DNA from: an uncultured Gammaproteobacteria bacterium | Lineage (GTDB): Bacteria > Patescibacteriota > Patescibacteriia > UBA1558 > S5-K13 | Direction of reading: 5' to 3' | DNA: 64,000 bases | NCBI GenBank assembly: GCA_964640635.1 | Contig: CAZXFD010000003.1 | Coordinates: 1,149 to 65,148 of the forward strand | Shown here: positions 6,944-53,914 of the stretch, one piece after another | Layout of the letters: each line of letters begins with the position of its first letter | Position numbering within the stretch: the first letter of the stretch is position 1 | Position numbers and translations under genes: made by a program | Notes under the pieces: model-generated | Database searches by the model: none | Told to the model about the DNA's origin: nothing | What the model saw: only the letters and a program-made list of their open reading frames with translations

Positions 6944-7345
6944 CTATGCGCTACGTTGATTTTGCAAATCTTCCTCTAAATATGCGCTTCTAAACCACGA
7001 AGCTGCTCCACAGAGCATCCAATACTTATAAAGCTCTATAATTGTAAGGGTATGATCTTCTGGATATCCGCAATACTTCACATAATATGCCTTAGCATGC
7101 CAGACATTGTCATCGCTTGCTACTAGGGGTAATTCTTTTAGAAATATATCTAAAAATACATCCCTAAACCACTTAGCAGCTCCGCATTCTACCCAGTAAA
7201 GGCAAAGCTCGTCTGAAGTCAGTACTCTGTCCTTATCATAACCATGATGCTCAATATAGTGTTTTTTTGCATACCATCTGTTGTCATCACTCATTATAAA
7301 AGACATTTGCAACTCTACTTCATCTTTCATACTTAGTTTATACAT
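6944..7345 (-). CDS. hypothetical protein built from two tandem ~42-aa repeats (W-[YH]-AK-x-[HY]Y[IV]..GY..D...ELxxYW..CGAAxWFR)
   Basis: Internal duplication is visible in the translation (DDNRWYAKKHYIEHHGYDKD...CGAAKWFR vs DDNVWHAKAYYVKYCGYPED...CGAASWFR). Own terminator at 6853-6890. Confidence 0.5.
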   Translation of the reverse strand: MYKLSMKDEVELQMSFIMSDDNRWYAKKHYIEHHGYDKDRVLTSDELCLYWVECGAAKWFRDVFLDIFLKELPLVASDDNVWHAKAYYVKYCGYPEDHTLTIIELYKYWMLCGAASWFRSAYLEEDLQNQRSA

Positions 7346-13356: not shown

Positions 13357-14394
13357 TTAATTTCTGATTGTTCTAATATTGTTTATGCTGTGATTTTTTT
13401 GTTCAAAATTATCAAGTGCGCCAGCCCTTCTTTTGCGACATCTTAACATATTATAAGAATAAAAATCACACTTTTTACCAATACAGCCTTCTTTTGAGGG
13501 ACACATTCCCTTTGCCATTTTTACAGTATCTATTCCTATCATTATGGCCCTTTTGACAGTTGCCTTATCTATTTGGACTGGCTTTTCTGTTTTTATTTCA
13601 CCGCCTATTGGATCAAAATTCCAATGTGGAATTCCTTCCATAATCCCCGATCTATTTAAAACATGTTTATTTATTTTATCAAAAGGAACTTTGTGCTTTC
13701 TTGCTGTTTCAACTCGCAGTATTGCAACTACATCTAACAAGTCAACACTCTTTTCCTTTTTCGTCTTTATTACTATATTATCTTTTGATTTAAAAATTAC
13801 TACAACATCAGCCATAACTTCTTTTTTATAAAACAAAAACTCTGCTATATCATCATGTTCACAATCAATAAAAACAACTTTCAATTCTTTATCATTTTGA
13901 TTTGTGCTAAAACTCGTTATTTTTCCTTCTTTTACAGCCTTTGAACAATAATCAAAAAATGTTTTTGTTTTTTCTTCGTTATGTTCCAAGTATTCTTTTA
14001 TAATGGGTAATGTCAATTTTAATACTTTTTCTGGATTATCTTTTATAATTGTAGTTAAATACGTCCAAGAGAAAAAATCATTACTGCAAACGTTTTTATT
14101 CTTAAAACAAGAAATCAGCTGATTTACAACTGGTATTTCATCTAGGTTCAAACCCTCTATATTAAGAAGTTCAAATAAAAGTGTATTTCTACCCTTAAAA
14201 TTAAGAAGTGGCAACACACCATTTGAAATAAAATAATTAATATCCTTATCCTCTGGCAGATCTACCCTAAATTCAAGCTCTGCTTTTGAAAGATTAGAAA
14301 ATTTCTTTGTAGCATATTTATACATCAGCGAAAGAGCAAGTATTGAATCAATGCTAAGCTCTTTTGGTAATAAAATTTTTTCTATTTTTTGCAT
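13357..14394 (-). CDS. hypothetical protein with C-terminal Cys cluster (C-x5-C-x4-C...C)
   Basis: 345-aa intact ORF with no assignable family. Confidence 0.45.
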   Translation of the reverse strand: MQKIEKILLPKELSIDSILALSLMYKYATKKFSNLSKAELEFRVDLPEDKDINYFISNGVLPLLNFKGRNTLLFELLNIEGLNLDEIPVVNQLISCFKNKNVCSNDFFSWTYLTTIIKDNPEKVLKLTLPIIKEYLEHNEEKTKTFFDYCSKAVKEGKITSFSTNQNDKELKVVFIDCEHDDIAEFLFYKKEVMADVVVIFKSKDNIVIKTKKEKSVDLLDVVAILRVETARKHKVPFDKINKHVLNRSGIMEGIPHWNFDPIGGEIKTEKPVQIDKATVKRAIMIGIDTVKMAKGMCPSKEGCIGKKCDFYSYNMLRCRKRRAGALDNFEQKNHSINNIRTIRN

Positions 14395-14602: not shown

Positions 14603-14965
14603 ATGCGAGAACCAAAAAAGGTCATCATAACCTTTTTACCTGGAACTAGTTTTAATACAGTCTGCAAAGACGTAAACAAACTAATTCAAAAATTTGATGC
14701 AGAGATTCCACAATTTAAGAACTTAGACATAATTCTTATAACAAGTCTGGAAATCTCACATTGCAAAAAAATAAGTCATCCAAGAATAAGGGCCACTGTA
14801 TGCGGAACATACTTTTCTCCAAAAAAGGGTGTTCAATACATATTAATACAAAATGGTTCTCCCAAAGAACTTGCCCAAGTAACTCGAGCCATGAGCCAGA
14901 AAAAACAAACACCAATTAAGGTGTTTGAAGTAAAAAATGGCAAAATTACTGGGGTTGCCGCTTAA
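14603..14965 (+). CDS. hypothetical protein (120 aa)
   Basis: TTGACA-17-TATTGT promoter-like sequence and GGAGGA SD upstream; terminator at 14981-15010. Confidence 0.45.
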   Translation: MREPKKVIITFLPGTSFNTVCKDVNKLIQKFDAEIPQFKNLDIILITSLEISHCKKISHPRIRATVCGTYFSPKKGVQYILIQNGSPKELAQVTRAMSQKKQTPIKVFEVKNGKITGVAA

Positions 14966-24670: not shown

Positions 24671-26728
24671 CTAATAATTTATCTTTGGTAAGTATTCTCT
24701 CTCAGTTGCCTCATCTTCTTCAATTTGATAAGAAATATTGTCTTCTTTAGAGGAAGAAAAAAATCCCATACTTCTTGCTAAATAATTTGCCTCTATAAGA
24801 TTCTGATCTACTCCTGAAATAAACTCTGAAACTTCTGTATCCTTGAATCCATCATATTTGAAAATAGACAGTGGGTAAGTAAGGATAAGGTGTTTTTTTG
24901 CACGAGTTATTGCTACATAAAAAAGTCGCCTTTCTTCTTCAACTGCTTCTACCGTTGTAGCAAATATATGAGGAAAAGCGTCGCTTACAAGATTCATTAC
25001 AAAAACAGTGCTCCACTCGAGTCCTTTTGCCTGATGCACAGTACTAAGCACAAGACAATTACCACGACTTTCTTTACTACTTTTCAAAGTAAAGCTTTCT
25101 TGCAAACTTATCTCCGACAAAAACTCTTCTAAACTTGTATAATTATTTGAAAATAATGCTAATTGATCTAAATCTTCTTGACGTTGTTTGTAATCAGGAT
25201 ACTCTGATATAAGATAAGTAGAATAATCATCTATTAAAACATTTATCATTTTCATAAGCCCGTCGCTCTCTGATTTGTGTATTGCTTTTATTGCTCTTAA
25301 AAATGCTTCCCAAGATTTTTTTGGCCTCTCTCCAAGATTAATCTGAAGATCAAATAGTTCTTCTAATTTTTCTACACCCTTTAACTCTTTATAAATTTTA
25401 CCTATTGTAGAGGCCCCTATGCCATCATACATTTCAAGCACCCTATGAAGTGATACTTCATCTTTATGATTTTTGTAAATTCTTAAAAATGCAACAACAT
25501 CTTTGATATGAGCGCGCTCAAAAAATTTAAGCCCCCCTCGCATTTCATAAACAATTCCTCTTGCATTTAATTCCATTTCAAGTTGTTGACAGTGGTTTGC
25601 GGCACGAAACAAAACGGCTATATCACTAGACTTGGCACCATCATAAATACATTTTTCAATTCTATCTACAATATATCTTGCCTCATCTCTATTACTACGA
25701 AGCGCAACAAGCTCTGGCTTTGCACTAGCACTAAGAATAGATTTCAAATTTTTTGTAAATTGATTTGTATTTTCTGAAATCACTTTATTTGCCAAACCCA
25801 CTATCTGAGGAGTTGATCTATAGTTTGTCTCTAATTTATGAACACTACAATTTTTGAATGTCTTTGGAAAATCCAAAATATTATTTATATCCGCTCCACG
25901 AAAAGAATAAATACTCTGCGCATCATCTCCAACTGCAATAATATTTTGATGGCTATGTGATATATTGTAGACAATTTCAGCTTGAATAGAGTTTGTGTCC
26001 TGATACTCATCAACTAAAACATATTCCCATTTTTTTCCTAACACACCTCCAATCTCATCATGAATAGTAAGATTCTTTAGATAATATAATAAATCATCAA
26101 AGTCCAACAACTTTGTTTCCTTTTTTCTATTTTTATACTCCTTAAAAATATTTATAAAATCGTTTTCAAAATCCTTCCACTCTGGAAATTTTATCTCTAG
26201 CGATTTAGAAATAGCAAAGGAAGAATTTAGTGAAAAACTAATAACCTCTTTTATAAACGATGGTGATGGTTTTCTTTTTTCATGTAAATTTTGAAAATAC
26301 TCTTTTGAAATATTTTTTATAATACTTTTTGCATCTGATTCATCAAGTATTACAAAATCTTTTGGGATATCAATACTGCTTCCATAAATTCGCAATAATC
26401 TGTGAGCAATAGAGTGAAATGTCCCACCCCAAATACCCAAATTTTTATCAATCTCCAAAATGTTTTTAACCCTCTCCATCATTTCATTTGCAGCCTTGTT
26501 GGTAAAAGTGAGGAGCAAAATCTTACTAGGATCTACTCCAGCTTTAATAAGCCAAGCAACACGGTATACAAGAGTCCTTGTCTTTCCACTACCTGCTCCA
26601 GCGAGCACTAAATGAGGTCCATTCCCAGTGGAAACAACACTATACTGCTCTTCATTTAATTCTTTTTGAAAATCAATTTGTTTCATAATCGTATGGGAAT
26701 TATATATGAAAAAAACAATAAAAACCAT
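24671..26728 (-). CDS. UvrD/PcrA/Rep-family ATP-dependent DNA helicase
   Basis: Walker A AGAGSGKTRTL and the full SF1 helicase motif set. The true start is probably the internal Met (MKQIDF...) at 26686 rather than 26728. Confidence 0.9.
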   Translation of the reverse strand: MVFIVFFIYNSHTIMKQIDFQKELNEEQYSVVSTGNGPHLVLAGAGSGKTRTLVYRVAWLIKAGVDPSKILLLTFTNKAANEMMERVKNILEIDKNLGIWGGTFHSIAHRLLRIYGSSIDIPKDFVILDESDAKSIIKNISKEYFQNLHEKRKPSPSFIKEVISFSLNSSFAISKSLEIKFPEWKDFENDFINIFKEYKNRKKETKLLDFDDLLYYLKNLTIHDEIGGVLGKKWEYVLVDEYQDTNSIQAEIVYNISHSHQNIIAVGDDAQSIYSFRGADINNILDFPKTFKNCSVHKLETNYRSTPQIVGLANKVISENTNQFTKNLKSILSASAKPELVALRSNRDEARYIVDRIEKCIYDGAKSSDIAVLFRAANHCQQLEMELNARGIVYEMRGGLKFFERAHIKDVVAFLRIYKNHKDEVSLHRVLEMYDGIGASTIGKIYKELKGVEKLEELFDLQINLGERPKKSWEAFLRAIKAIHKSESDGLMKMINVLIDDYSTYLISEYPDYKQRQEDLDQLALFSNNYTSLEEFLSEISLQESFTLKSSKESRGNCLVLSTVHQAKGLEWSTVFVMNLVSDAFPHIFATTVEAVEEERRLFYVAITRAKKHLILTYPLSIFKYDGFKDTEVSEFISGVDQNLIEANYLARSMGFFSSSKEDNISYQIEEDEATEREYLPKINY

Positions 26729-26744
26729 CCCTCAAAATATAATC

Positions 26745-26774
26745 TTGACAAAATAACGATACTTATAATATAAT
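26745..26774 (+). promoter_or_regulatory. sigma70-type promoter (TTGACA-18-TATAAT) driving the downstream non-coding locus
   Basis: TTGACA at 26745-26750 and TATAAT at 26769-26774. Confidence 0.6.
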
Positions 26775-26780
26775 TGCCAT

Positions 26781-27272
26781 ATGCATAATCTATAACAGGG
26801 AGGAAACATGATGCTATTACGTATTCTTCCTGGTACAAGTCCTGACATGTGTGTGTCGATAAAGTCGCTCCCTGTGTCAACTGTACCAATTCGACCTACA
26901 TTGCCTCATCCTGCCAAAATAGACACTCTGAGGTAGGGTAGTGAGGCGCCAAGAACTCTGATGAGTGTCTAGAGATATCCTCTAAGGATATAGCCACCTT
27001 CTATCTTAACGAGCTTTTCTAAGCTCACAAGAATATTCAGAGCATTCTGAATGAACCCGTTAAAAGGAGAAAGGAAATGAAATTCATTTACTTGCTCAAC
27101 GAGGTTACTTTTAGCTAAAAGCCGCAAAACTTGGCAGTAGCAGATCCAATCCATTAACCTCGTTGCCATAGTCTGATGCAAGTCGGTAGCATCAGATTGA
27201 CATTTCGCCGACTGGTCGTTATAAATCCTTTTATACAATAGTGCAGGCATCTGAATCAGATGCCTGTTTTTT
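26781..27272 (+). ncRNA. candidate large structured non-coding RNA (about 480 nt), class unresolved
   Basis: No credible ORF in a stretch of about 45% GC against about 28% background. It is bracketed by its own promoter and a rho-independent terminator (27244-27272). Multiple internal helices are visible, e.g. caacgaggtt/aacctcgttg and tctgatgc..gcatcagat. It contains a 13-aa mini-ORF with a strong SD. Confidence 0.45.
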
Positions 27273-27330
27273 AAAATCTATGATTTTTGTATCAAATCAA
27301 CTATACTATTAAATAGAGAAAATATATAAT

Positions 27331-28935
27331 ATGATAAAAAATTTAAACTACAAAAAAATAATCACCTACGCCTTTTGGCTAGTTTTTTATATTTTAATAT
27401 TCTTGATTCTGCTAAAAAATTCTTTTTCATATCTTGATCCTGATTTGGGATGGCATCTAAAAGTAGGAGAAGAAATACTTCAAAGCAATCATATCCCAGA
27501 ATTGCAAAAATACATGTGGACGCTTGAAGGTCAAAATTGGGTTGATCATGAGTGGCTACTAAATCTTATAACATATTCTATATTCCAAAATTTTGGATAT
27601 ATTGCCCTTAGTATATTTTTTGCACTTATCCCGCTCTTAGGGTTTATTTTATTAAACATACACTTCAAAAAAAAATATATCCAAAGCTCTCTCTCGGGTA
27701 TTTTTATAGCGATCATACAAATATTTGGATTATTTGTTTGCCTTCCTCATTTTGGAATTAGAATGCAAGAGATTACTTTTTTATTTCTTATAATACTTTT
27801 CATAATTATAGACAGCCTTGAAATAAAACAAAAAATATCTACATCAATACTTACAATACTATTATTTTTTCTTTGGGCATGTCTTCATGCCGGATTTCTT
27901 ATAGGACTTTTTGTTTTATTTTTTAAACTAGCCATAGATATATTTATATTTCTAATCAATATAAAAAATACAGACTCAAATATAAAAATTCTGGAAGCAA
28001 AGAAAATAAAATTCCTAAGCGCAACAGCAATACTTTCATTTCTTATAACACTCCTTACTCCATACGGACTCAATTTATATAAATTCCTCTATGACTACAA
28101 AAATTCTTTTTATAAATCTCATATTCAAGAATGGCTATCTCCTCTTGCATTTATTCCTTTGCAATACACAAAGTTATTTTATATAGCACTCACAATAGTC
28201 GCCATAATTTTCATATTTATATTTGAAAAAATATCCCTCAAACAAAAACATGTCAAAAACATCTACTACTGGCAGATACTTATAAGTATGATATTTATAT
28301 ATCTTGGGCTCAGTTCTCTCAGGCATGCACCACTTTTATTTATAGCCTCTTTTTTCTTTATAACAATATTTAGTTATGATTTATTTAAGGGCTATAATAA
28401 ATATTTAAAAAAAGAATTTTTAGAAATATTATTTATTATCACAATGATAATATGCTCTATGTCCATAATTTTGACGATAAAAACTACAAAAAATCCTTTT
28501 ACTGAAAATTATTGCAATAAATATCCGTGTGAATTTTCAAATTTTTTAGATACCAATCCAGAATACAAAAATTATAAGCTATTCAATTCATATACCTGGG
28601 GTGGATATTTTATATATAGGCATCCTGATATGAAACTTTTTATAGACGGCCGCTTACCTCAATACAAATTCAAAGATAAAACTATTCTAGAGGAATACTA
28701 TAGCTTTTTTGATAAAAATAATGCTTATAACAAACTATCTGAATATCAAATCAACATGGTAGTTTTCAATAAAAAAACAGATACTAAACTAGACTGGTTT
28801 GAAAAAAATATACTAAAAATTGATGAAGTAAAACTAAATAACAAAGAAAACGTTGTTATAGATTATATAAAAAGCTCTAGTGAGTGGACAATGCTCTATG
28901 AAGATTCAAATACATTTGCATACATAAAAAAATAA
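27331..28935 (+). CDS. polytopic membrane protein with C-terminal soluble domain (possible GT-C-like glycosyltransferase)
   Basis: About 11 TM helices followed by an approximately 150-aa hydrophilic domain; a conserved acidic first loop (LDPDLGWHLKVGEE). Function uncertain. Confidence 0.4.
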   Translation: MIKNLNYKKIITYAFWLVFYILIFLILLKNSFSYLDPDLGWHLKVGEEILQSNHIPELQKYMWTLEGQNWVDHEWLLNLITYSIFQNFGYIALSIFFALIPLLGFILLNIHFKKKYIQSSLSGIFIAIIQIFGLFVCLPHFGIRMQEITFLFLIILFIIIDSLEIKQKISTSILTILLFFLWACLHAGFLIGLFVLFFKLAIDIFIFLINIKNTDSNIKILEAKKIKFLSATAILSFLITLLTPYGLNLYKFLYDYKNSFYKSHIQEWLSPLAFIPLQYTKLFYIALTIVAIIFIFIFEKISLKQKHVKNIYYWQILISMIFIYLGLSSLRHAPLLFIASFFFITIFSYDLFKGYNKYLKKEFLEILFIITMIICSMSIILTIKTTKNPFTENYCNKYPCEFSNFLDTNPEYKNYKLFNSYTWGGYFIYRHPDMKLFIDGRLPQYKFKDKTILEEYYSFFDKNNAYNKLSEYQINMVVFNKKTDTKLDWFEKNILKIDEVKLNNKENVVIDYIKSSSEWTMLYEDSNTFAYIKK

Positions 28936-28991
28936 TCTAAAAATACATACAAAAAAACCGAGTGTAGATTCCGACACTCGGTTTATATTAT

Positions 28992-30290
28992 TTATTTCAT
29001 TAGAATAATTTTTTTAAAAGATGAAAGCCTTCCATGTGTCATCTTATAAAAATAGACTCCGTCGGCAACCAACATATTAGCGTCATTGGTTCCATTCCAA
29101 ATCACACCGTAGGTTCCAGATGATTTTGTTTCTGAAACTAAGGTCTTTATTTTCTGACCTCTAATGTTGTAGATTTCTAGTTTTACATTTTCAGTCTTGG
29201 GAAGTGAAAATGAAATTTTGGTTTCCCCACTAAATGGGTTCGGATAATTACTCATAACAATACCTGGTGAAACCATATTATCATCGATAGCTACGCTTTG
29301 AAGATCTAATGTAATAAAATATCCATAGTCATCAGAATGTTCAAATAATGCTATTAATTTATTACCCGTAATGAACATACTTTTTGCTATATCTCCATAC
29401 GAAGAACCGTACACCGTTTGCCAACCCACTCCAGTAGTATTTATATCATACCTAGCAACTCCAGTACCCATAGCAAAATATATAGAGTTTCCGTTTTTTT
29501 CAAAAAACATTGGAGCAAGATAATGTGTGGGCATATGAACCAAAAGCTCTTGGCTAAAATCAGTACTCTGATTTATTTTGATAAGGTTAAATGCTCCCCA
29601 ACCATAGGGTGGAGTCAAATTTTCTTTTGCAATAATATAAATTCCAAATTCATCATTAATAACCTTGTTTATCTCTGAGTATTGTCCATATCCATAAGAG
29701 ATAATTGGCACTGAATAATACTCAAGATTATCAAAAATAGAAATCTGAGCTGCCATATCACCATTGCCAAGAACTTCATACCCACCACATACCAATTTAA
29801 GTGGTGCTTCCAGATTTATATCAAAACAGCTTATATTATCTACAGTATTGTTTTGACTACAAAACTGGTTTCCCTCTTCGAAATTATATGAAGTTACTCC
29901 AATAACTCCAGAAGAAAACAACACATACATGGAGCTATCATTGCATTTTTTGACTTGTTTAATGGGCGTATAAAGATCATAATAACCAAGGCTATCCTGA
30001 TCAAGATAAATATAAGTATTGGCCTCTGTTATGATCCCAACCCTTTCTTCATCAAACATTACTATCTGTTTATAAATAAGGGTATCTGGCAAGTCAATAG
30101 TTTCTGAAATGAATATCGTCCCTGTCTCCAGCGTGAATTTCAATAATTTGACATCAGTAGAGTCAGTAACGCCCCAAAAAACATTCCCATCTACAGAATC
30201 CATGCACGACATGTTTACATCATACCGATTCTGAGCATAAACAAGTATTGCGATCACAACGATCACAACAAGTAAAAAGATCTTCTTCAT
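28992..30290 (-). CDS. secreted beta-propeller-like protein with C-terminal T9SS type-A sorting domain (Por_Secre_tail)
   Basis: Signal peptide. The C-terminus (NYPNPFSGETKISFSLP..VKLEIYNIRGQKIKTLV...GVYFYKM...KKIILMK) is the hallmark NYPNPF CTD. Confidence 0.65.
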   Translation of the reverse strand: MKKIFLLVVIVVIAILVYAQNRYDVNMSCMDSVDGNVFWGVTDSTDVKLLKFTLETGTIFISETIDLPDTLIYKQIVMFDEERVGIITEANTYIYLDQDSLGYYDLYTPIKQVKKCNDSSMYVLFSSGVIGVTSYNFEEGNQFCSQNNTVDNISCFDINLEAPLKLVCGGYEVLGNGDMAAQISIFDNLEYYSVPIISYGYGQYSEINKVINDEFGIYIIAKENLTPPYGWGAFNLIKINQSTDFSQELLVHMPTHYLAPMFFEKNGNSIYFAMGTGVARYDINTTGVGWQTVYGSSYGDIAKSMFITGNKLIALFEHSDDYGYFITLDLQSVAIDDNMVSPGIVMSNYPNPFSGETKISFSLPKTENVKLEIYNIRGQKIKTLVSETKSSGTYGVIWNGTNDANMLVADGVYFYKMTHGRLSSFKKIILMK

Positions 30291-30417
30291 TTTCTCCTCC
30301 TAAGGATTATGTTTTCAAAGATATATTAGTATTACAACAATAAAAAAACTTTGTCAATAGCTCCCTAAACATAAAAAGTCTCCCGTATTTAATATAAAAC
30401 CCTTATTCCTTGATAAT

Positions 30418-30840
30418 TTAAAAAATAGATATTATAGAAGCGCCAGCTAAAACCAATATAATACCAATTATTTTTAACAAAGAAATATCTGAATTGAATA
30501 AGAGGGGCGCAAGTAATGCTATCAAAATGATCTGAGTTGCTTTTAAGGCACCTGCATATCCTGGATTAGGAGCGCTTTTTACAGCGGAAACATCCAAATA
30601 ATTTCCAAATACTGCAAATGCAGAGGCCAACACTAAAAACAGTATGACACTTAATCCTATATTTATCTTTGATTTATTGATTACATTCCAAATAACAAAA
30701 CCTGTAAATGTAATTCCAAATATAAACATATTAAGTACAAGTGGAGGCACATTCATTAAAAACAACTTTTTTATGACAAGTGTCATACCAGTAAAACATA
30801 CCGCCGATCCAAATGCATACATTACCCAGCTTGATATCAT
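30418..30840 (-). CDS. small 4-TM membrane protein (EamA/SMR-like half-transporter)
   Basis: Hydrophobicity pattern only. Confidence 0.4.
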   Translation of the reverse strand: MISSWVMYAFGSAVCFTGMTLVIKKLFLMNVPPLVLNMFIFGITFTGFVIWNVINKSKINIGLSVILFLVLASAFAVFGNYLDVSAVKSAPNPGYAGALKATQIILIALLAPLLFNSDISLLKIIGIILVLAGASIISIF

Positions 30841-30863
30841 ATTTTTTTATTTAATATTAATAA

Positions 30864-31349
30864 TTATTTTATCTGTGCAAAAATTACTACATAATTCTTT
30901 CCATAAGCTTTTGCACATTTTGGACATGCTGTATAGAAAAAATATAACTTTTTGACTTCCTTATCTCTGCTTTTCACATATTGCCTCATCTCTTGTATCC
31001 ATTTCCCCATATTTTGATATGACCCCTCAAAAACTTTTGTCAAAAATGTACCACCTAACTTTGTCATTTGTGCACCAGGAACATCCTTTGCAACATCGAT
31101 ATAAATGTCGGATCCAAATAAGGATTTTTCATCAAAAAGCATTAGTTGATGCTCTGCGCTTGCACCTGCTTTTTCTATTAACTTTGTGTTTTTGACAATC
31201 TTTGCTCCAATATTAATTGGAATATGAAAAAAATTAAGAATACCGTCTTTTACAAAAAGCTTGTCTTGCCAAAGAGTTTCTTTATTATCCCATGATTCTG
31301 GATCAAATGGCTCACAACAACCGGTTGATTTTATTATTTGTTCATTCAT
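30864..31349 (-). CDS. hypothetical protein with CC..CPKC cysteines
   Basis: 161-aa intact ORF. Confidence 0.4.
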   Translation of the reverse strand: MNEQIIKSTGCCEPFDPESWDNKETLWQDKLFVKDGILNFFHIPINIGAKIVKNTKLIEKAGASAEHQLMLFDEKSLFGSDIYIDVAKDVPGAQMTKLGGTFLTKVFEGSYQNMGKWIQEMRQYVKSRDKEVKKLYFFYTACPKCAKAYGKNYVVIFAQIK

Positions 31350-31407
31350 AATTTTGTTTCTTCTAAATTTGTTGGTAAAATATATATCTTATTTTAATTG
31401 GTTAAAA

Positions 31408-31830
31408 CTACTTAATCCATTCATATAACCCCCTACCGCTTGCAATAGTTCCTATTTGTCTAGCCAATCCCTTGTCTACTAGTTTTTTCCAAAGATTCTC
31501 AGCTGATTCAGAAATATGAATATCTGATCTCAGTGGTTTATCAAGGGAGTCTACCAACTTTTTATAAACCTCTTCTCCAATACCTTGACCCCTCATGTCT
31601 TCTTCTATAGTAATAAAACCAATACTATAATAATCACCACAATCTTTATAAGACATAAAACCAATTTTTTTACCATCTAATAAAATAGATCTTGTATTTT
31701 TTAAGTGATCAAATTTTCTTCCTGCTAAAATAATATCCCCCGTTTTTTCTTTGGTATGTATAAGCTCAACTCTATTTTCTAAACTTTTTTTATTCTGTGG
31801 TTTTGGAAATTCTTCTATCATGATTTTCAT
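31408..31830 (-). CDS. GNAT-family N-acetyltransferase
   Basis: Motif A: MRGQGIGEEVYKKLV. Confidence 0.7.
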   Translation of the reverse strand: MKIMIEEFPKPQNKKSLENRVELIHTKEKTGDIILAGRKFDHLKNTRSILLDGKKIGFMSYKDCGDYYSIGFITIEEDMRGQGIGEEVYKKLVDSLDKPLRSDIHISESAENLWKKLVDKGLARQIGTIASGRGLYEWIK

Positions 31831-37390: not shown

Positions 37391-39292
37391 TTAAAAAGAC
37401 CTAACAGCACGAACATAAGTCCATCTAGTGTCCTTAAGTTGGTTGGATATACTTGAAACTGTAAAATGCTTGCTCCAAGCTGAATTTACCCCACCCTCAG
37501 TAGAACTCCAGTAATAATCTGCACTAAAACCACCAATTATTACTCTATTTATATAAAGCAAAGTTAACTCATCTAGACTTGGCAAATACCAATCATCATA
37601 GCCGCCACCGTCATAAGCTCGAGCTTTGCCTGCCGCATAAGTATTATCATCAACACCATTTTGAGCAATTATTCTGTCTGTATTTGTCGCACCGCTCCCC
37701 AATGTAGTGTCAGTACCTCCTGGTACAGCAGTGGATTGATAAGCGACTTTAGCCCAAATAATACCAGCACTCTGATTAACTGTTGCAGCTATTAATCCGT
37801 GTATTTCTCCCTCCACATAACCAAGATCTCCGTCTTGAAAAATATAAGCAATCTTACCGCCTTGATATTCATCGCCAATAACCAACATAGAATTCCATTT
37901 AGCATAAAGAGTGACATCTTCTGTCCCGATAGTATAACTTGCGCCATCAGCATATCCAACGACTCCATCAGTTGTAGTGGCCCATCCTGCAAAAGTATAG
38001 CTAGTTCTAGTAAAACCGTTAGCTGTCAAATTTGTTGGTGTATTATAAATCAATGTTTGACTAGCGGTAGCACCACCATCTCCTCCATTAGTGTCAAAAG
38101 TAACAGTATAGGTGTTGATTGTCCACTTGGCGTAAAGAGTGACATCTTCCGTTCCGATAGTATAACTTGCGCCATCAGCATATCCAACAACTCCATCAGT
38201 TGTTGTTGCCCAACCAGCAAAAGTATACCCTGTTTTCGTAAACCCATTTGCCGTCAAAGACGTTGGTGTATTATAAATCAATGTTTGACTAGCGGTAGCA
38301 CCACCATCTCCAGAATTAACATCAAAGGTTATGGTATAGGTATTTATTACGAATATAGCAGAGGCAAATTTATTACTTGTAACAGAAGTGTCTGTTCTTT
38401 CTGCTGTTAGAATACCATCACTCCAGCCAACAAAACTATAGCCAGCATCTGGCACAGCAATAACAGTAGAGCCACTACTACCACTATTTATGGTTTGAGA
38501 AGTATTACCAGAAATTGTTCCTCCAGTACTAGCGGTATAGACAAGAGAATAACGAGTAACAGTAGCTCCACTAGGAATAAATGTGAAAGGATTATAAAGC
38601 AAGTTAACACCACAAGCAACTTTAATATTTTCTACATTAGATTTATTTATCACTCCAATACCATTATTAACATAACAAGTTTGATTTATATAATTTGATT
38701 TAACTGTTATGTTATAGCTTGCGCCATCTGTTAATAACGTAATAAATTTAAAATTACTATTATCACCCAGATTAATAGCTAAATCATCTTTGCCATTGTT
38801 TTGCAAGACAACTGACCCAACAATACCAGTTATGCTACCTCCTATAGTATAATATTCATCTTTGATATTTCGATTAGATTTATTTTTGATTTTATCTGTT
38901 GGTAGACTATTATCGACCTTGTTTTCTAATGACTTGGAAATTGCTGGTAATAAATTCAATATATTATTTACTACATTTCTAGTAATAGAACCGAAATATC
39001 CCGCAGCTGGAGTAATTTTGTTGGCTTTTTGAAATTTTATAAGAGCATTTCTTGTAGATAGTCCAAAAAATGTTGTTTCTTTCCCCAACGAACCAAAACC
39101 AGATTTGTTTAAGACAAATCCATTATTATTCAAGAACTTTTGTAATTCTTTGACATCATTATTTATGTTACCTGTTTGCAGATTTTTATTAAAAACAAAA
39201 GTATCGCTAGCCTGAACTGATTGGATTAAAATAAAAAATAGCGCAAAAACAATTGTAATTGTAAGCGCTAGTAGCTTTTGCTTTTTAAACAT
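37391..39292 (-). CDS. secreted protein: peptidoglycan-binding domain + Listeria-Bacteroides (InlB B-type) repeats + C-terminal DUF1566 (Lcl-like) domain
   Basis: PG_binding_1-like segment (LQKFLNNNGF..GLSTRNALIKFQ), 2-3 repeats of YT(I/V)TFD.NGGDGGATASQTLIYNTPT.LTANGFT.TGYTFAGWATTTDG, and C-terminal DWYLPSLDEL...YYWSSTE. Confidence 0.7.
   Translation of the reverse strand: MFKKQKLLALTITIVFALFFILIQSVQASDTFVFNKNLQTGNINNDVKELQKFLNNNGFVLNKSGFGSLGKETTFFGLSTRNALIKFQKANKITPAAGYFGSITRNVVNNILNLLPAISKSLENKVDNSLPTDKIKNKSNRNIKDEYYTIGGSITGIVGSVVLQNNGKDDLAINLGDNSNFKFITLLTDGASYNITVKSNYINQTCYVNNGIGVINKSNVENIKVACGVNLLYNPFTFIPSGATVTRYSLVYTASTGGTISGNTSQTINSGSSGSTVIAVPDAGYSFVGWSDGILTAERTDTSVTSNKFASAIFVINTYTITFDVNSGDGGATASQTLIYNTPTSLTANGFTKTGYTFAGWATTTDGVVGYADGASYTIGTEDVTLYAKWTINTYTVTFDTNGGDGGATASQTLIYNTPTNLTANGFTRTSYTFAGWATTTDGVVGYADGASYTIGTEDVTLYAKWNSMLVIGDEYQGGKIAYIFQDGDLGYVEGEIHGLIAATVNQSAGIIWAKVAYQSTAVPGGTDTTLGSGATNTDRIIAQNGVDDNTYAAGKARAYDGGGYDDWYLPSLDELTLLYINRVIIGGFSADYYWSSTEGGVNSAWSKHFTVSSISNQLKDTRWTYVRAVRSF
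37903..38360. repeat. two tandem about 225-bp near-identical coding repeats (B-repeat modules)
   Basis: gcgtaaagagtgacatcttc(c/t)gt(t/c)ccgatagtataacttgcgccatcagcatatccaac... recurs with about 88% identity. Confidence 0.8.
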
Positions 39293-41141: not shown

Positions 41142-41229
41142 TGGCGGAGAGATAGGGATTTGAACCCTAGAGGGATTGCTCCCAAACGGTTTTCGAGACC
41201 GTCGCTTTAGACCACTCAGCCATCTCTCC
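41142..41229 (-). tRNA. tRNA-Ser (anticodon CGA), CCA encoded
   Basis: Minus-strand sequence GGAGAGATGGCTGAGTGGTCTAAAGCGACGGTCTCGAAAACCGTTTGGGAGCAATCCCTCTAGGGTTCAAATCCCTATCTCTCCGCCA: 7-bp acceptor stem, long variable arm, T-arm TAGGG-TTCAAAT-CCCTA, anticodon loop cTCGAaa. Confidence 0.85.
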
Positions 41230-53344: not shown

Positions 53345-53914
53345 CTAAGTCCCTATTTCACCGCCTTTAAAAGTACGACTTACAGAAATAAGGAACTTAA
53401 TGATCCCAAATACAACCGCCCAAATAACCATGACTATTAAAATACTGATCCAAATATTGGGCATTTCAGAAACATACTTAAATACAAGCTCTCCCTTATC
53501 TGAAAAATAGGCAACGTTTTGAAAATCATGTATCTCGTAAAAAAAATACATGATTGTCCCTGGAATGCTTGGGTACGATTTCCATATATGTATGCCAAAA
53601 TTGTATTCCGAGTAATCCTTGACTCCACTATCCCGTATCATCATACTACCATATGAAAGGCTTGCATCTTTCCCCCAGCCAAGAGCTTCTTCCAAAGGAA
53701 CGTTTGCCTTTATGATTGGGGTGTTTCTAGGCTCGATATTAGAGGCATCATAAATTACACCTTCAAACTGCGAAATGTCCAAAACCTTAGTTTCTCCGGG
53801 TCTAGGAAGTCCTCTTTGAGATAATGGACTCATTCCCCAAGATATTAACATAGATAATGCCAATGCGATACCTGCTATTAAAAGCGTCTTTTTTGTATTC
53901 TTCGAGATTTTCAT
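53345..53914 (-). CDS. hypothetical bitopic membrane protein (189 aa)
   Basis: N-terminal signal anchor and C-terminal TM helix. Confidence 0.4.
   Translation of the reverse strand: MKISKNTKKTLLIAGIALALSMLISWGMSPLSQRGLPRPGETKVLDISQFEGVIYDASNIEPRNTPIIKANVPLEEALGWGKDASLSYGSMMIRDSGVKDYSEYNFGIHIWKSYPSIPGTIMYFFYEIHDFQNVAYFSDKGELVFKYVSEMPNIWISILIVMVIWAVVFGIIKFLISVSRTFKGGEIGT

What the first reader, a model, noticed from the sequence alone, without database searches (positions are those of the whole stretch)
26745..27275. A roughly 480-nt GC-enriched structured non-coding locus with its own promoter and terminator, class unresolved
Seen directly. A TTGACA-18-TATAAT promoter (26745-26774) is followed by about 480 nt lacking any plausible ORF. 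The only ORF of 60 codons or more is a minus-strand 93-aa reading frame with no protein-like character. GC is about 45% against about 28% elsewhere. The locus ends in a textbook terminator (caggcatctga-atc-agatgcctg + T6, 27244-27272) just upstream of the promoter of the next gene. Helices are evident, for example caacgaggtt (27097-27106) with aacctcgttg (27156-27165), and tctgatgc/gcatcagat. It also holds a 13-codon mini-ORF (MKFIYLLNEVTFS) with a strong SD, whose 3' half is one strand of the 10-bp helix, an attenuator-like arrangement. I tried to fit the two universal RNAs missing from the window. For RNase P RNA, AAAGUCGCUCC at 26861 resembles GGAAAGUCCGGGCUCC and GAACCCGUUA at 27052 resembles AGAACCCGGCUUA, but no P4 pairing can be drawn. 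For tmRNA, AAAAGCCGCAAAA at 27117 is identical to the E. coli segment upstream of the resume codon, but there is no GGGG...UUCGACGGG 5' end, no T-arm/CCA 3' end and no ALAA-type tag. The size, GC skew and transcription signals point to an RNA gene. It is either a very divergent RNase P RNA or tmRNA, or a large RNA not in the standard set.
Basis: partly seen in the sequence, partly recalled or inferred. Interest (0 to 1): 0.8.

Follow-up and report, generated by a model that had tools for sequence, protein, structure and literature searches.

The report
Orphan structured RNA gene with mini-ORFs
This is a real, self-contained gene for a roughly 490-base, heavily folded RNA found only in a few closely related uncultured bacteria; it is not RNase P RNA, tmRNA or any catalogued RNA family, one sister genome has lost it, and its function is unknown.

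Summary
There is a perfect TTGACA-18-TATAAT promoter, a strong intrinsic terminator and about 490 nt of GC-enriched sequence that folds far better than shuffled controls (z -4.8).

Three diverged syntenic copies exist, plus near-identical ones. They lie between a UvrD-type helicase gene and a 534-aa membrane protein gene. Core blocks are 80-90% invariant, while neutral sites in the flanking genes are only 57-67% identical. Twelve base pairs change on both sides and stay paired, and G·U substitutions fit only the + strand. Selection therefore acts on an RNA fold.

No Rfam family matches any copy, and ARAGORN finds no tmRNA.

It is kept in frame in all copies, as is the 12-13-codon ORF. Its substitution pattern shows little protein-level constraint, and it has no homologue among 1.8 billion proteins.

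A sister genome has the helicase and membrane genes 37 nt apart with the whole RNA gene missing. The RNA is therefore accessory and not an obligatory leader.

Best reading: a new, clade-restricted structured RNA, possibly dual-function. The mechanism is inferred, not shown.

The parts
26745..26774 (+). Sigma-70-type promoter: -35 TTGACA (26745-26750), 18-nt spacer, -10 TATAAT (26769-26774). The inferred transcription start is near 26781.
   Evidence: 12/12 consensus match. The -35 and -10 boxes are conserved in L082 (TTGACA) and L085 (TTGACC). The start site is inferred, not measured.
26797..26831 (+). Hairpin H1: AGGGAGGAA pairs with UUCUUCCU, enclosing Shine-Dalgarno 1 and the ORF1 start codon.
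   Evidence: Predicted in all three copies. 14 pairs, of which 6 vary on one side and 2 on both sides.
26808..26936 (+). ORF1, 42 codons (44 in L082, 42 in L085), preceded by GGGAGG-AAAC. Conserved motifs are ILPGT ... VP.RPT.PHP.K.DTLR. Translation is not shown.
   Evidence: Frame, start, SD and stop are kept in all copies. No codon periodicity. pN/pS is about 0.5. No homologue elsewhere.
26832..26887 (+). Long hairpin H2: GGUACAA...UUGUACC base with a tip that varies in sequence and length.
   Evidence: 5 of 13 pairs change on both sides and stay paired. The hairpin is kept with different tips in each copy.
26903..26971 (+). Nearly invariant core, proposed H-type pseudoknot. S1 is GCCUCAUCCUGCC (26903-26915) with GGUAGGGUAGUGAGGC (26932-26947). 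S2 is UAGACACUC (26920-26928) with GAGUGUCUA (26963-26971). The ORF1 stop codon lies inside the S1 3' strand.
   Evidence: 80-90% three-way invariance. S1 shows only pair-preserving one-sided changes. S2 forms in the L085 MFE fold. The competing local hairpin is broken by a U-to-C change in L085 (pair 199/206). The pseudoknot itself is inferred, because its invariance gives no covariation to test.
26975..27053 (+). Three short hairpins: H4 (26975-26991), H5 (27011-27026) and H6 (27034-27053).
   Evidence: The sequences differ between copies but a hairpin is retained at each place. H5 changes G-C to A-U, and H6 has an unrelated sequence in each genome.
27067..27097 (+). Hairpin H7, enclosing Shine-Dalgarno 2 (AAGGAG) and the ORF2 start codon.
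   Evidence: 12 pairs, 5 of them with one-sided G·U-type changes, 97% of cells paired.
27077..27118 (+). ORF2, 13 codons (MKFIYLLNEVTFS). It is 12-13 codons in relatives, with a variable C-terminus.
27097..27165 (+). Helix H8 (CAACGAGGUUA / UAACCUCGUUG) enclosing a variable insert of 27-49 nt. The tmRNA-like string at 27117 sits in this insert.
   Evidence: The helix is kept in all copies, with an A-U to G-C change at its inner end. The insert is not conserved.
27170..27212 (+). Hairpin H9 (27170-27198) with the conserved loop A(A/U)(G/A)UCGGUA. A second pseudoknot is possible between the loop (G/A)UCGG and CCGA(C/U) at 27208-27212.
   Evidence: H9 has 11 pairs with one G-C to A-U compensation. 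For the loop-to-3' pairing, G:C in the window becomes A:U in L082 and a mismatch in L085 (read), which is weak evidence.
27243..27273 (+). Intrinsic terminator: 11-bp stem, 3-nt loop and U-tract.
   Evidence: It is conserved in all copies, with a U-A to U·G change in L085.

Best explanation
The locus is a self-contained gene for a roughly 490-nt, highly structured RNA. It runs from the promoter at 26745-26774 to the terminator at 27243-27273, on the + strand. It belongs to a new family confined to one small clade of uncultured, probably Patescibacteria-affiliated bacteria.

Shown: purifying selection acts on the RNA sequence and fold. The fold is a string of about ten hairpins around a nearly invariant core at 26903-26971. 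The gene is accessory, because a sister genome lacks it.

Inferred: the core forms a pseudoknot. The RNA acts in trans as a stable regulatory or protein-binding RNA. Its two mini-ORFs carry Shine-Dalgarno and AUG signals, each buried in a conserved hairpin, with the ORF1 stop inside the core. They make it a dual-function RNA, or one whose fold responds to translation, in the manner of S. aureus RNAIII. It is not RNase P RNA, tmRNA or any Rfam family.
For: Transcription signals: a 12/12 promoter and a strong terminator, both conserved in relatives.

Fold: z -4.8, -5.8 and -6.3 in three diverged copies. 95% of pair cells are paired. 12 pairs change on both sides, against 1-4 in slid controls and 5.3 +/- 1.7 in shuffles.

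Strand: the G·U-type changes fit only the + strand.

Selection on RNA: four-fold degenerate sites in the flanking genes are 56-67% identical, while 20-nt blocks of the RNA are up to 90% invariant in the three-way alignment and show no codon periodicity. Synonymous divergence inside ORF1 (0.39-0.46) is below that of the flanking genes (0.48-0.63).

Mini-ORFs: ORF1 and ORF2 keep their SD, AUG and frame in all copies. Only about 6 of 44 genes in the window use such an SD, and they use the same GGAGG-N4-5-ATG geometry.

Independence from neighbours: distant homologues of the downstream gene have upstream gaps of 62-193 nt and no such element. L233 keeps both flanking genes 37 nt apart without the RNA.
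Against: Only three informative sequences exist, and the structure was derived from them. The covariation statistics are therefore weak, and the core and pseudoknot are untestable because they do not vary.

There are no expression data. No target, partner protein or ligand has been identified.

The scan found no canonical promoter between the terminator and the downstream gene, so read-through into that gene cannot be excluded.

The conserved peptide segments of ORF1 coincide exactly with conserved RNA helices. Frame retention is estimated at p of about 0.03-0.1 by chance, and that estimate is my own reasoning, not a computation. This retention is the main independent sign of translation.

Loss in L233 rests on a single Logan contig.
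Confidence: 0.55

Rival explanations
1. It is primarily an mRNA for a small protein (ORF1, 42-44 aa, perhaps also ORF2). The conserved structure would be regulatory UTR and coding-region folding that controls the peptide's translation or stability.
For: - ORF1 is the only ORF kept in all copies. Length differences in the variable hairpin tip are multiples of three (+6, +3).
- Its SD has exactly the geometry of the few strongly SD-led genes of this genome.
- The codon log-odds of the ORF1 frame (about 0.0) exceeds 99.75% of off-frame windows.
Against: - No codon periodicity: invariant fractions are 0.65/0.72/0.57 at positions 1/2/3.
- pN/pS is about 0.5, against 0.08-0.11 for the helicase and 0.25-0.31 for the membrane gene, and synonymous sites are themselves constrained.
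- The codon score sits in the lowest 1.5% of real gene windows.
- About 340 nt downstream of the stop is as conserved as the ORF.
- No homologue in 5.8 billion or 1.84 billion protein sets.
Confidence: 0.2
2. It is a long cis-acting leader or attenuator of the downstream 534-aa membrane (GT-C-like) gene. Translation of the leader ORFs would decide whether transcription stops at 27243-27273.
For: - It has the same orientation as the gene and ends 58 nt before its start codon.
- The RNA and this gene occur together in all RNA-bearing genomes.
- No sigma-70-like site was found between the terminator and the gene.
- Half of ORF2 is one strand of helix H8.
Against: - The sister genome L233 keeps the membrane gene with a 37-nt upstream region and no RNA.
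- Homologues at about 45% identity lack any long leader.
- No conserved antiterminator was found. The only upstream segment resembling the terminator strand (H9) covaries to preserve H9 itself, and this weakens pairing with the terminator in L082 and L085 (read directly).
- 490 nt with about ten hairpins is far larger than known leader-peptide attenuators.
Confidence: 0.12
3. It is a very divergent RNase P RNA or tmRNA.
For: Only its size (about 0.5 kb), strong promoter, high structure and short look-alike strings (finding text).
Against: - No RNase P, tmRNA or other universal-RNA model appears even at E<=10 on three copies.
- ARAGORN is negative.
- The look-alike strings are not conserved.
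- No conserved 5'/3' closing helix was found.
- The gene is deleted in L233.
Confidence: 0.01
4. It is a non-functional remnant or a small inserted or mobile element that happens to fold.
For: - It behaves as a presence/absence indel of about 540 bp.
- It sits in a variable island.
- Its distribution is very narrow.
Against: - Strong purifying selection relative to neutral sites, and compensatory changes.
- Single copy in the window, and no hit in 230 fetched loci, phage or plasmid collections.
- No terminal repeats or target duplication at the indel borders (read directly).
Confidence: 0.05

Closest known systems
Staphylococcus aureus RNAIII and other dual-function sRNAs (SgrS/SgrT, SR1/SR1P, Pel/SagA)
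   Same: It is about 0.5 kb with its own strong promoter and intrinsic terminator. It folds as a chain of many hairpins rather than one closed globular fold. It carries a small SD-led ORF near the 5' end. (The comparison is from established knowledge of RNAIII. The anatomy here comes.)
   Different: No sequence or structure homology: no Rfam hit, including RNAIII. No C-rich target-binding loops are evident. There is no quorum-sensing context. Translation and trans-regulation are unshown. The distribution is limited to a few uncultured genomes.
Large orphan structured RNAs found as GC-rich intergenic regions (OLE, ROOL, GOLLD, raiA, HEARO)
   Same: It is a GC-enriched intergenic region in an AT-rich genome, with extensive conserved secondary structure and unknown biochemical role. 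Like OLE with oapA, it lies next to a membrane protein gene.
   Different: None of these models matches. It has a much narrower distribution, carries SD-AUG mini-ORFs, and has no closing long-range helix.
Leader-peptide transcription attenuators (trp/his/pheST leaders, tnaC, erm leaders)
   Same: Short SD-led ORFs overlap helices, and the element ends in an intrinsic terminator upstream of a co-oriented gene.
   Different: It is several times longer. No conserved terminator/antiterminator alternative was found. There are no runs of regulatory codons. The downstream gene exists without it in L233 and in distant homologues.
RNase P RNA and tmRNA
   Same: Size class and strong expression signals only.
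   Different: It fails every defining feature tested (see the membership table).

Membership tests
Bacterial RNase P RNA (Rfam RNaseP_bact_a/b) | Covariance-model match at or near the gathering score | tested here: not met
   No RNase P model is listed even at E<=10 on the window copy, L082 or L085.
Bacterial RNase P RNA (Rfam RNaseP_bact_a/b) | Conserved P4 / CR-I and CR-V sequence blocks | tested here: not met
   The look-alike strings at 26861 and 27052 fall in segments that differ completely in L082 and L085. The truly conserved blocks do not resemble CR-I or CR-V (read directly).
Bacterial RNase P RNA (Rfam RNaseP_bact_a/b) | Essential and universally retained | tested here: inconclusive
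   The gene is absent from the syntenic slot of sister genome L233. Whole genomes could not be scanned for a copy elsewhere.
tmRNA (SsrA) | tRNA-like domain formed by the 5' and 3' ends (acceptor stem, T-arm, CCA) | tested here: not met
   ARAGORN finds only tRNA-Ser at 41142-41229. No conserved 5'/3' pairing was found.
tmRNA (SsrA) | Tag reading frame with a resume codon and an ALAA-type end, and a Rfam tmRNA match | tested here: not met
   No tmRNA hit. The AAAAGCCGCAAAA string at 27117 sits in the variable insert of H8, which is largely absent in L085.
Dual-function sRNA (RNAIII-like) | Independent transcription unit with its own promoter and terminator | tested here: met
   Sequence signals are present and conserved. 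Transcript ends were not measured.
Dual-function sRNA (RNAIII-like) | Small ORF with a ribosome-binding site, conserved among homologues | tested here: met
   ORF1 and ORF2 are retained with SD and AUG in all copies.
Dual-function sRNA (RNAIII-like) | The ORF is translated and the RNA also regulates targets by base-pairing | not testable with these tools
   This needs ribosome profiling or proteomics and target identification. The substitution pattern gives little support for constraint on the peptide.
Leader-peptide attenuator | Mutually exclusive terminator/antiterminator helices, conserved among homologues | tested here: not met
   The only candidate is the H9 strands against the terminator strands, at 7/8 complementarity in the window. 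It drops to 6/8 in L082 and L085, while H9 itself is preserved (read directly).
Leader-peptide attenuator | The regulated gene is always preceded by the element | tested here: not met
   L233 has a 37-nt upstream region. Homologues at about 45% identity have upstream gaps of 62-193 nt.
OLE / ROOL / GOLLD / raiA / HEARO large ncRNAs | Covariance-model match | tested here: not met
   No hit at E<=10.
Type I toxin mRNA (hok-like) | Small hydrophobic membrane peptide | tested here: not met
   ORF1 is proline-rich and has no hydrophobic stretch of transmembrane length. ORF2 is only 12-13 aa (read directly).

The most novel reading that the evidence does not exclude
It may be a previously undescribed class of accessory riboregulator in Patescibacteria-like bacteria. 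In this reading, ribosomes translating a 42-codon ORF run into and terminate inside an invariant pseudoknot, and a second mini-ORF invades another helix. The RNA's fold, and so its trans activity or partner binding, would report translation status. The ORF1 C-terminal motif R-P-x-x-P-H-P resembles tunnel-binding proline-rich peptides. That resemblance is recalled from memory and untested.
Probability: 0.2. Interest if true: 0.7.

Novelty: new member of a known kind. Interest (0 to 1): 0.45.

Why it matters
Few structured RNAs beyond the universal ones have been described for candidate-phyla-radiation-type bacteria; two quick literature searches found nothing. This locus gives a clean candidate with defined ends, a conserved core likely to be a pseudoknot, and a natural deletion variant in a sister genome for comparison. 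If the mini-ORFs are translated, it would be a rare dual-function RNA outside the well-studied phyla. It also shows that the 'missing universal RNA' reasoning from a 64-kb window was misleading.

Tried and rejected
1. Rfam at gathering thresholds on the whole window, and in E-value mode on three copies. Only noise, and no family shared between copies.
2. ARAGORN for tmRNA. Negative.
3. Genome-collection scan with the helicase.
4. JGI metagenome scan with the invariant core 20-mer. It gave one chance hit in a high-GC contig.
5. Two viral-contig scans, plus phage and plasmid blastn. Chance 15-mer hits only, and nhmmer found no extended similarity in 230 loci.
6. The next relatives by helicase identity (81% and 74%), with +/-10 kb flanks. 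No RNA; the slot holds other small genes.
7. Upstream regions of distant membrane-protein homologues. No leader.
8. ORF1 as a protein family. No homologue in either protein search and no Pfam match.
9. ORF1 as a RiPP precursor for the radical-SAM/SPASM gene seen near the locus in L082, L085 and L234. That gene is absent from the 64-kb window, and ORF1 has no conserved Cys. The idea is not supported.
10. Hammerhead reading of the conserved CUGAYGAG. The flanking helices are in the wrong order and no GAAA follows (read directly; no Rfam hit).
11. A 5'/3' closing helix. None is conserved.
12. L234 and L235 as extra sequences. They differ from L082 by 1 nt, but the local flanks are equally similar, so they are uninformative.
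13. Literature searches for Patescibacteria structured RNAs and for the assembly accession. Nothing found.

Full report

Reading 26400-27600 and the consensus scan confirm the transcription signals. A 12/12 TTGACA-18-TATAAT site lies at 26745-26774. An intrinsic terminator lies at 27243-27267, with 11 pairs (6 G-C), a 3-nt loop and a T6 tail. The scan as a whole found no more promoter-like sites than shuffles (11 against 10.8), but this is the only perfect match.

GC is 0.46 at 26800-26999 and 0.425 over 26801-27200, against about 0.25-0.35 around it. The + strand folds to -147.1 kcal/mol, against -116.6 +/- 6.4 for dinucleotide shuffles (z -4.8). The reverse strand gives z -3.8. The described object is therefore present and is not a chance feature.

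One statement is wrong: the region is not free of plausible ORFs. A 42-codon ORF at 26808-26936 has GGGAGG-AAAC-ATG in front of it. The 13-codon ORF lies at 27077-27118.

**2. Known RNA families**

Rfam 15 at gathering thresholds finds only tRNA-Ser at 41145-41229 in the whole window. ARAGORN finds the same tRNA and no tmRNA.

In E-value mode (E<=10, permissive filters) the window copy and two diverged copies give only unrelated noise. No family is shared between copies. Nothing appears from RNase P, tmRNA, 6S, SRP, OLE, ROOL, GOLLD, raiA, HEARO, riboswitches or ribozymes.

**3. Relatives**

- The downstream 534-aa membrane protein has no Pfam match. It has only two close cluster relatives (78% and 69% identity) before dropping to about 46% in Patescibacteria.
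- Their contigs show the same arrangement: UvrD-type helicase (-), a gap of about 600 nt, then the membrane gene (+).
- The helicase search added relatives at 81% and 74%, then Patescibacteria at 59% or less.
- The nearest named homologues of both flanking genes are Patescibacteria. The organism is probably affiliated with that group. This is an inference and is not established.
- Members of the 90% helicase cluster gave two more genomes.
- In total there are three diverged copies of the element (window = L081; L082 = L083, with L234/L235 differing by 1 nt; L085) and one genome without it (L233).
- Nothing was found in JGI metagenomes with the invariant 20-mer, apart from one chance hit. Nothing was found in viral contigs, phages or plasmids, or by nhmmer over all 230 fetched loci. 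Nothing was found within +/-10 kb of the helicase in the 81% and 74% relatives.

**4. What is conserved**

The promoter, the terminator and several internal blocks are nearly identical across the three copies, with variable segments in between. Four-fold degenerate sites of the flanking genes are only 56-67% identical. By contrast, 20-nt blocks of the element reach 80-90% three-way invariance, highest at 26895-26974.

They are unrecognisable in L082 and L085, so they are coincidences.

**5. Structure**

All three copies fold far better than shuffles: z -4.8, -5.8 and -6.3.

RNAalifold predicts 109 pairs. On these, 95.1% of cells are paired. 12 pairs change on both sides and stay paired, against 1-4 when partners are slid by 1-3 columns and 5.3 +/- 1.7 in shuffles. 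This comes with the caveat that the structure was derived from these same three sequences.

Segment-wise folding shows hairpins kept with different sequences:
- H2 has a variable tip and five covarying pairs.
- H4, H5 and H6 are each retained. H5 changes G-C to A-U, and H6 has an unrelated sequence in each genome.
It is kept with an A-U to G-C change and a variable insert of 27-49 nt.
- H9 has one G-C to A-U compensation.

The many G·U-type one-sided changes are compatible only with the + strand.

The invariant core (26903-26971) can form two stems that are mutually nested as an H-type pseudoknot. S1 is GCCUCAUCCUGCC with GGUAGGGUAGUGAGGC. S2 is UAGACACUC with GAGUGUCUA. S2 appears in the L085 MFE fold, and the competing local hairpin is broken by a U-to-C change in L085. 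The stems do not vary, so the pseudoknot is an inference.

A second loop-to-3' pairing, (G/A)UCGG with CCGA(C/U), has one compensatory change and one mismatch. No conserved helix joins the 5' and 3' ends. The architecture is therefore a chain of hairpins around a knotted core rather than a closed ribozyme-like fold.

**6. The ORFs**

ORF1 is retained at 42, 44 and 42 codons, with SD, AUG and stop in place. The tip of H2, which it crosses, differs in length by +6 and +3 nt. ORF2 is retained over MK(F/I)IYLLNEV, with a variable end.

In this genome only about 6 of 44 long ORFs have a strong SD. Those use GGAGG-N4-5-ATG, exactly as ORF1 does. Two such signals in 490 nt are unlikely to be accidental; that is my estimate, not a computed value.

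Several results argue against a protein under selection:
- The invariant fractions at codon positions 1/2/3 are 0.65/0.72/0.57.
- pN/pS is about 0.5, with synonymous divergence below that of the neighbours.
- The codon score lies between real genes and off-frames.
- The conserved peptide segments coincide with H1, the base of H2 and the core.
- No homologue exists in 5.8 billion or 1.84 billion proteins.

Both SD-AUG pairs are buried in conserved hairpins (H1 and H7), and the ORF1 stop lies inside S1 of the core. I put the chance that at least one ORF is translated at roughly one half. The antisense 93-aa ORF is broken in relatives and is spurious.

**7. Relation to the neighbours**

No RNA-related partner gene (reverse transcriptase, Cas, transposase) was found among the 26 proteins scanned with Pfam, mainly 13-41 kb of the window.

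Distant homologues of the membrane gene sit in glycosyltransferase contexts, with upstream gaps of 62-193 nt.

The decisive case is L233 (Logan ERR14064755). It is the sister of L085, at 94% helicase and 80% membrane-protein identity, and it is nested inside the RNA-bearing clade in NJ trees. There the helicase and membrane genes are 37 nt apart. The whole segment of about 540 bp is absent, from just upstream of the -35 box to the conserved box before the membrane gene, and the borders carry no repeats.

The most parsimonious reading is secondary loss. The element is therefore accessory, and the membrane gene does not need it in cis. This rests on a single assembled contig.

**8. Interpretation**

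Shown:
- A conserved transcription unit under purifying selection on RNA sequence and fold.
- No match to any Rfam family.
- Restriction to a small clade.
- Dispensability in one lineage.

Inferred:
- It is made as a discrete, abundant RNA of about 490 nt.
- The core is a pseudoknot.
- It acts in trans, possibly as a dual-function RNA whose mini-ORF translation interacts with its fold, working like RNAIII.

Rivals are a small-protein mRNA (0.2), a cis leader or attenuator (0.12), a remnant or mobile insert (0.05), and RNase P RNA or tmRNA (0.01).

**9. Novelty and score**

It is a new family of a known kind of thing: an orphan bacterial structured RNA, possibly dual-function. The narrow distribution, the lack of any functional handle and the thin comparative data (three sequences) limit its weight. 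The clean gene anatomy, the invariant knotted core, the embedded SD-ORFs and the natural deletion make it a reasonable experimental candidate. Interest is 0.45.

Noticed in passing
L090 3773-4000 (= L231 9773-10000), minus strand relative to the helicase: In the 74%-identity relative, the slot that holds the RNA here contains a tiny gene instead. It has a TTGACA promoter, a GAGGAGG SD, an 18-aa hydrophobic ORF (MMKPGSIGLLIGMLVISS) and a terminator. It looks like a type-I-toxin-like or small membrane peptide gene.
   Followed up: no
window, start regions of 295-909, 6944-7345, 13357-14394, 14603-14965, 28992-30290, 53345-53914: Only about 6 of 44 long ORFs carry a strong Shine-Dalgarno, all as GGAGG-N4-5-ATG. 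The rest have A/T-rich upstream regions with no SD. Translation initiation therefore appears to be bimodal in this genome.
   Followed up: partly
window 28992-30290 (-): A protein with a Por_Secre_tail / FlgD_ig C-terminal sorting domain (type IX secretion signal) sits in a genome whose neighbouring genes have their best named homologues in Patescibacteria. That is an unexpected combination.
   Followed up: no
window 27331-31830 versus L082 4001-9602, L085 4001-7575, L087, L090: The stretch next to the helicase is a variable island. The T9SS-tail protein, a radical-SAM/SPASM enzyme, SdpI and an ArsR-type regulator are present or absent in different relatives. The window lacks the rSAM and SdpI genes altogether.
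   Followed up: partly
L082 4001-5602 versus L234 762-2363: Between two near-identical genomes, 77 of the 80 nucleotide differences in the membrane protein gene fall in its last 280 nt. This suggests recombination or a hypervariable C-terminal domain.
   Followed up: no
window 27273-27330; L082 and L085 equivalents: A conserved box AAATC-N-A-N-TATACTATTAA lies between the terminator and the membrane gene start. It is deleted together with the RNA in L233. It is not a canonical sigma-70 promoter by the scan.
   Followed up: partly
window 37601-38000: This is the second GC peak of the window (0.43). It lies inside a Listeria-Bacteroides-repeat / peptidoglycan-binding surface protein gene (37391-39292), so GC enrichment alone does not mark RNA genes here.
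   Followed up: no
window 24671-26728 (-): The mechanical helicase ORF (685 aa) starts 14 codons upstream of the start used by gene callers in relatives (671 aa, MKQIDFQK at 26686). The longer version would run into the RNA promoter region and is probably not real.
   Followed up: partly
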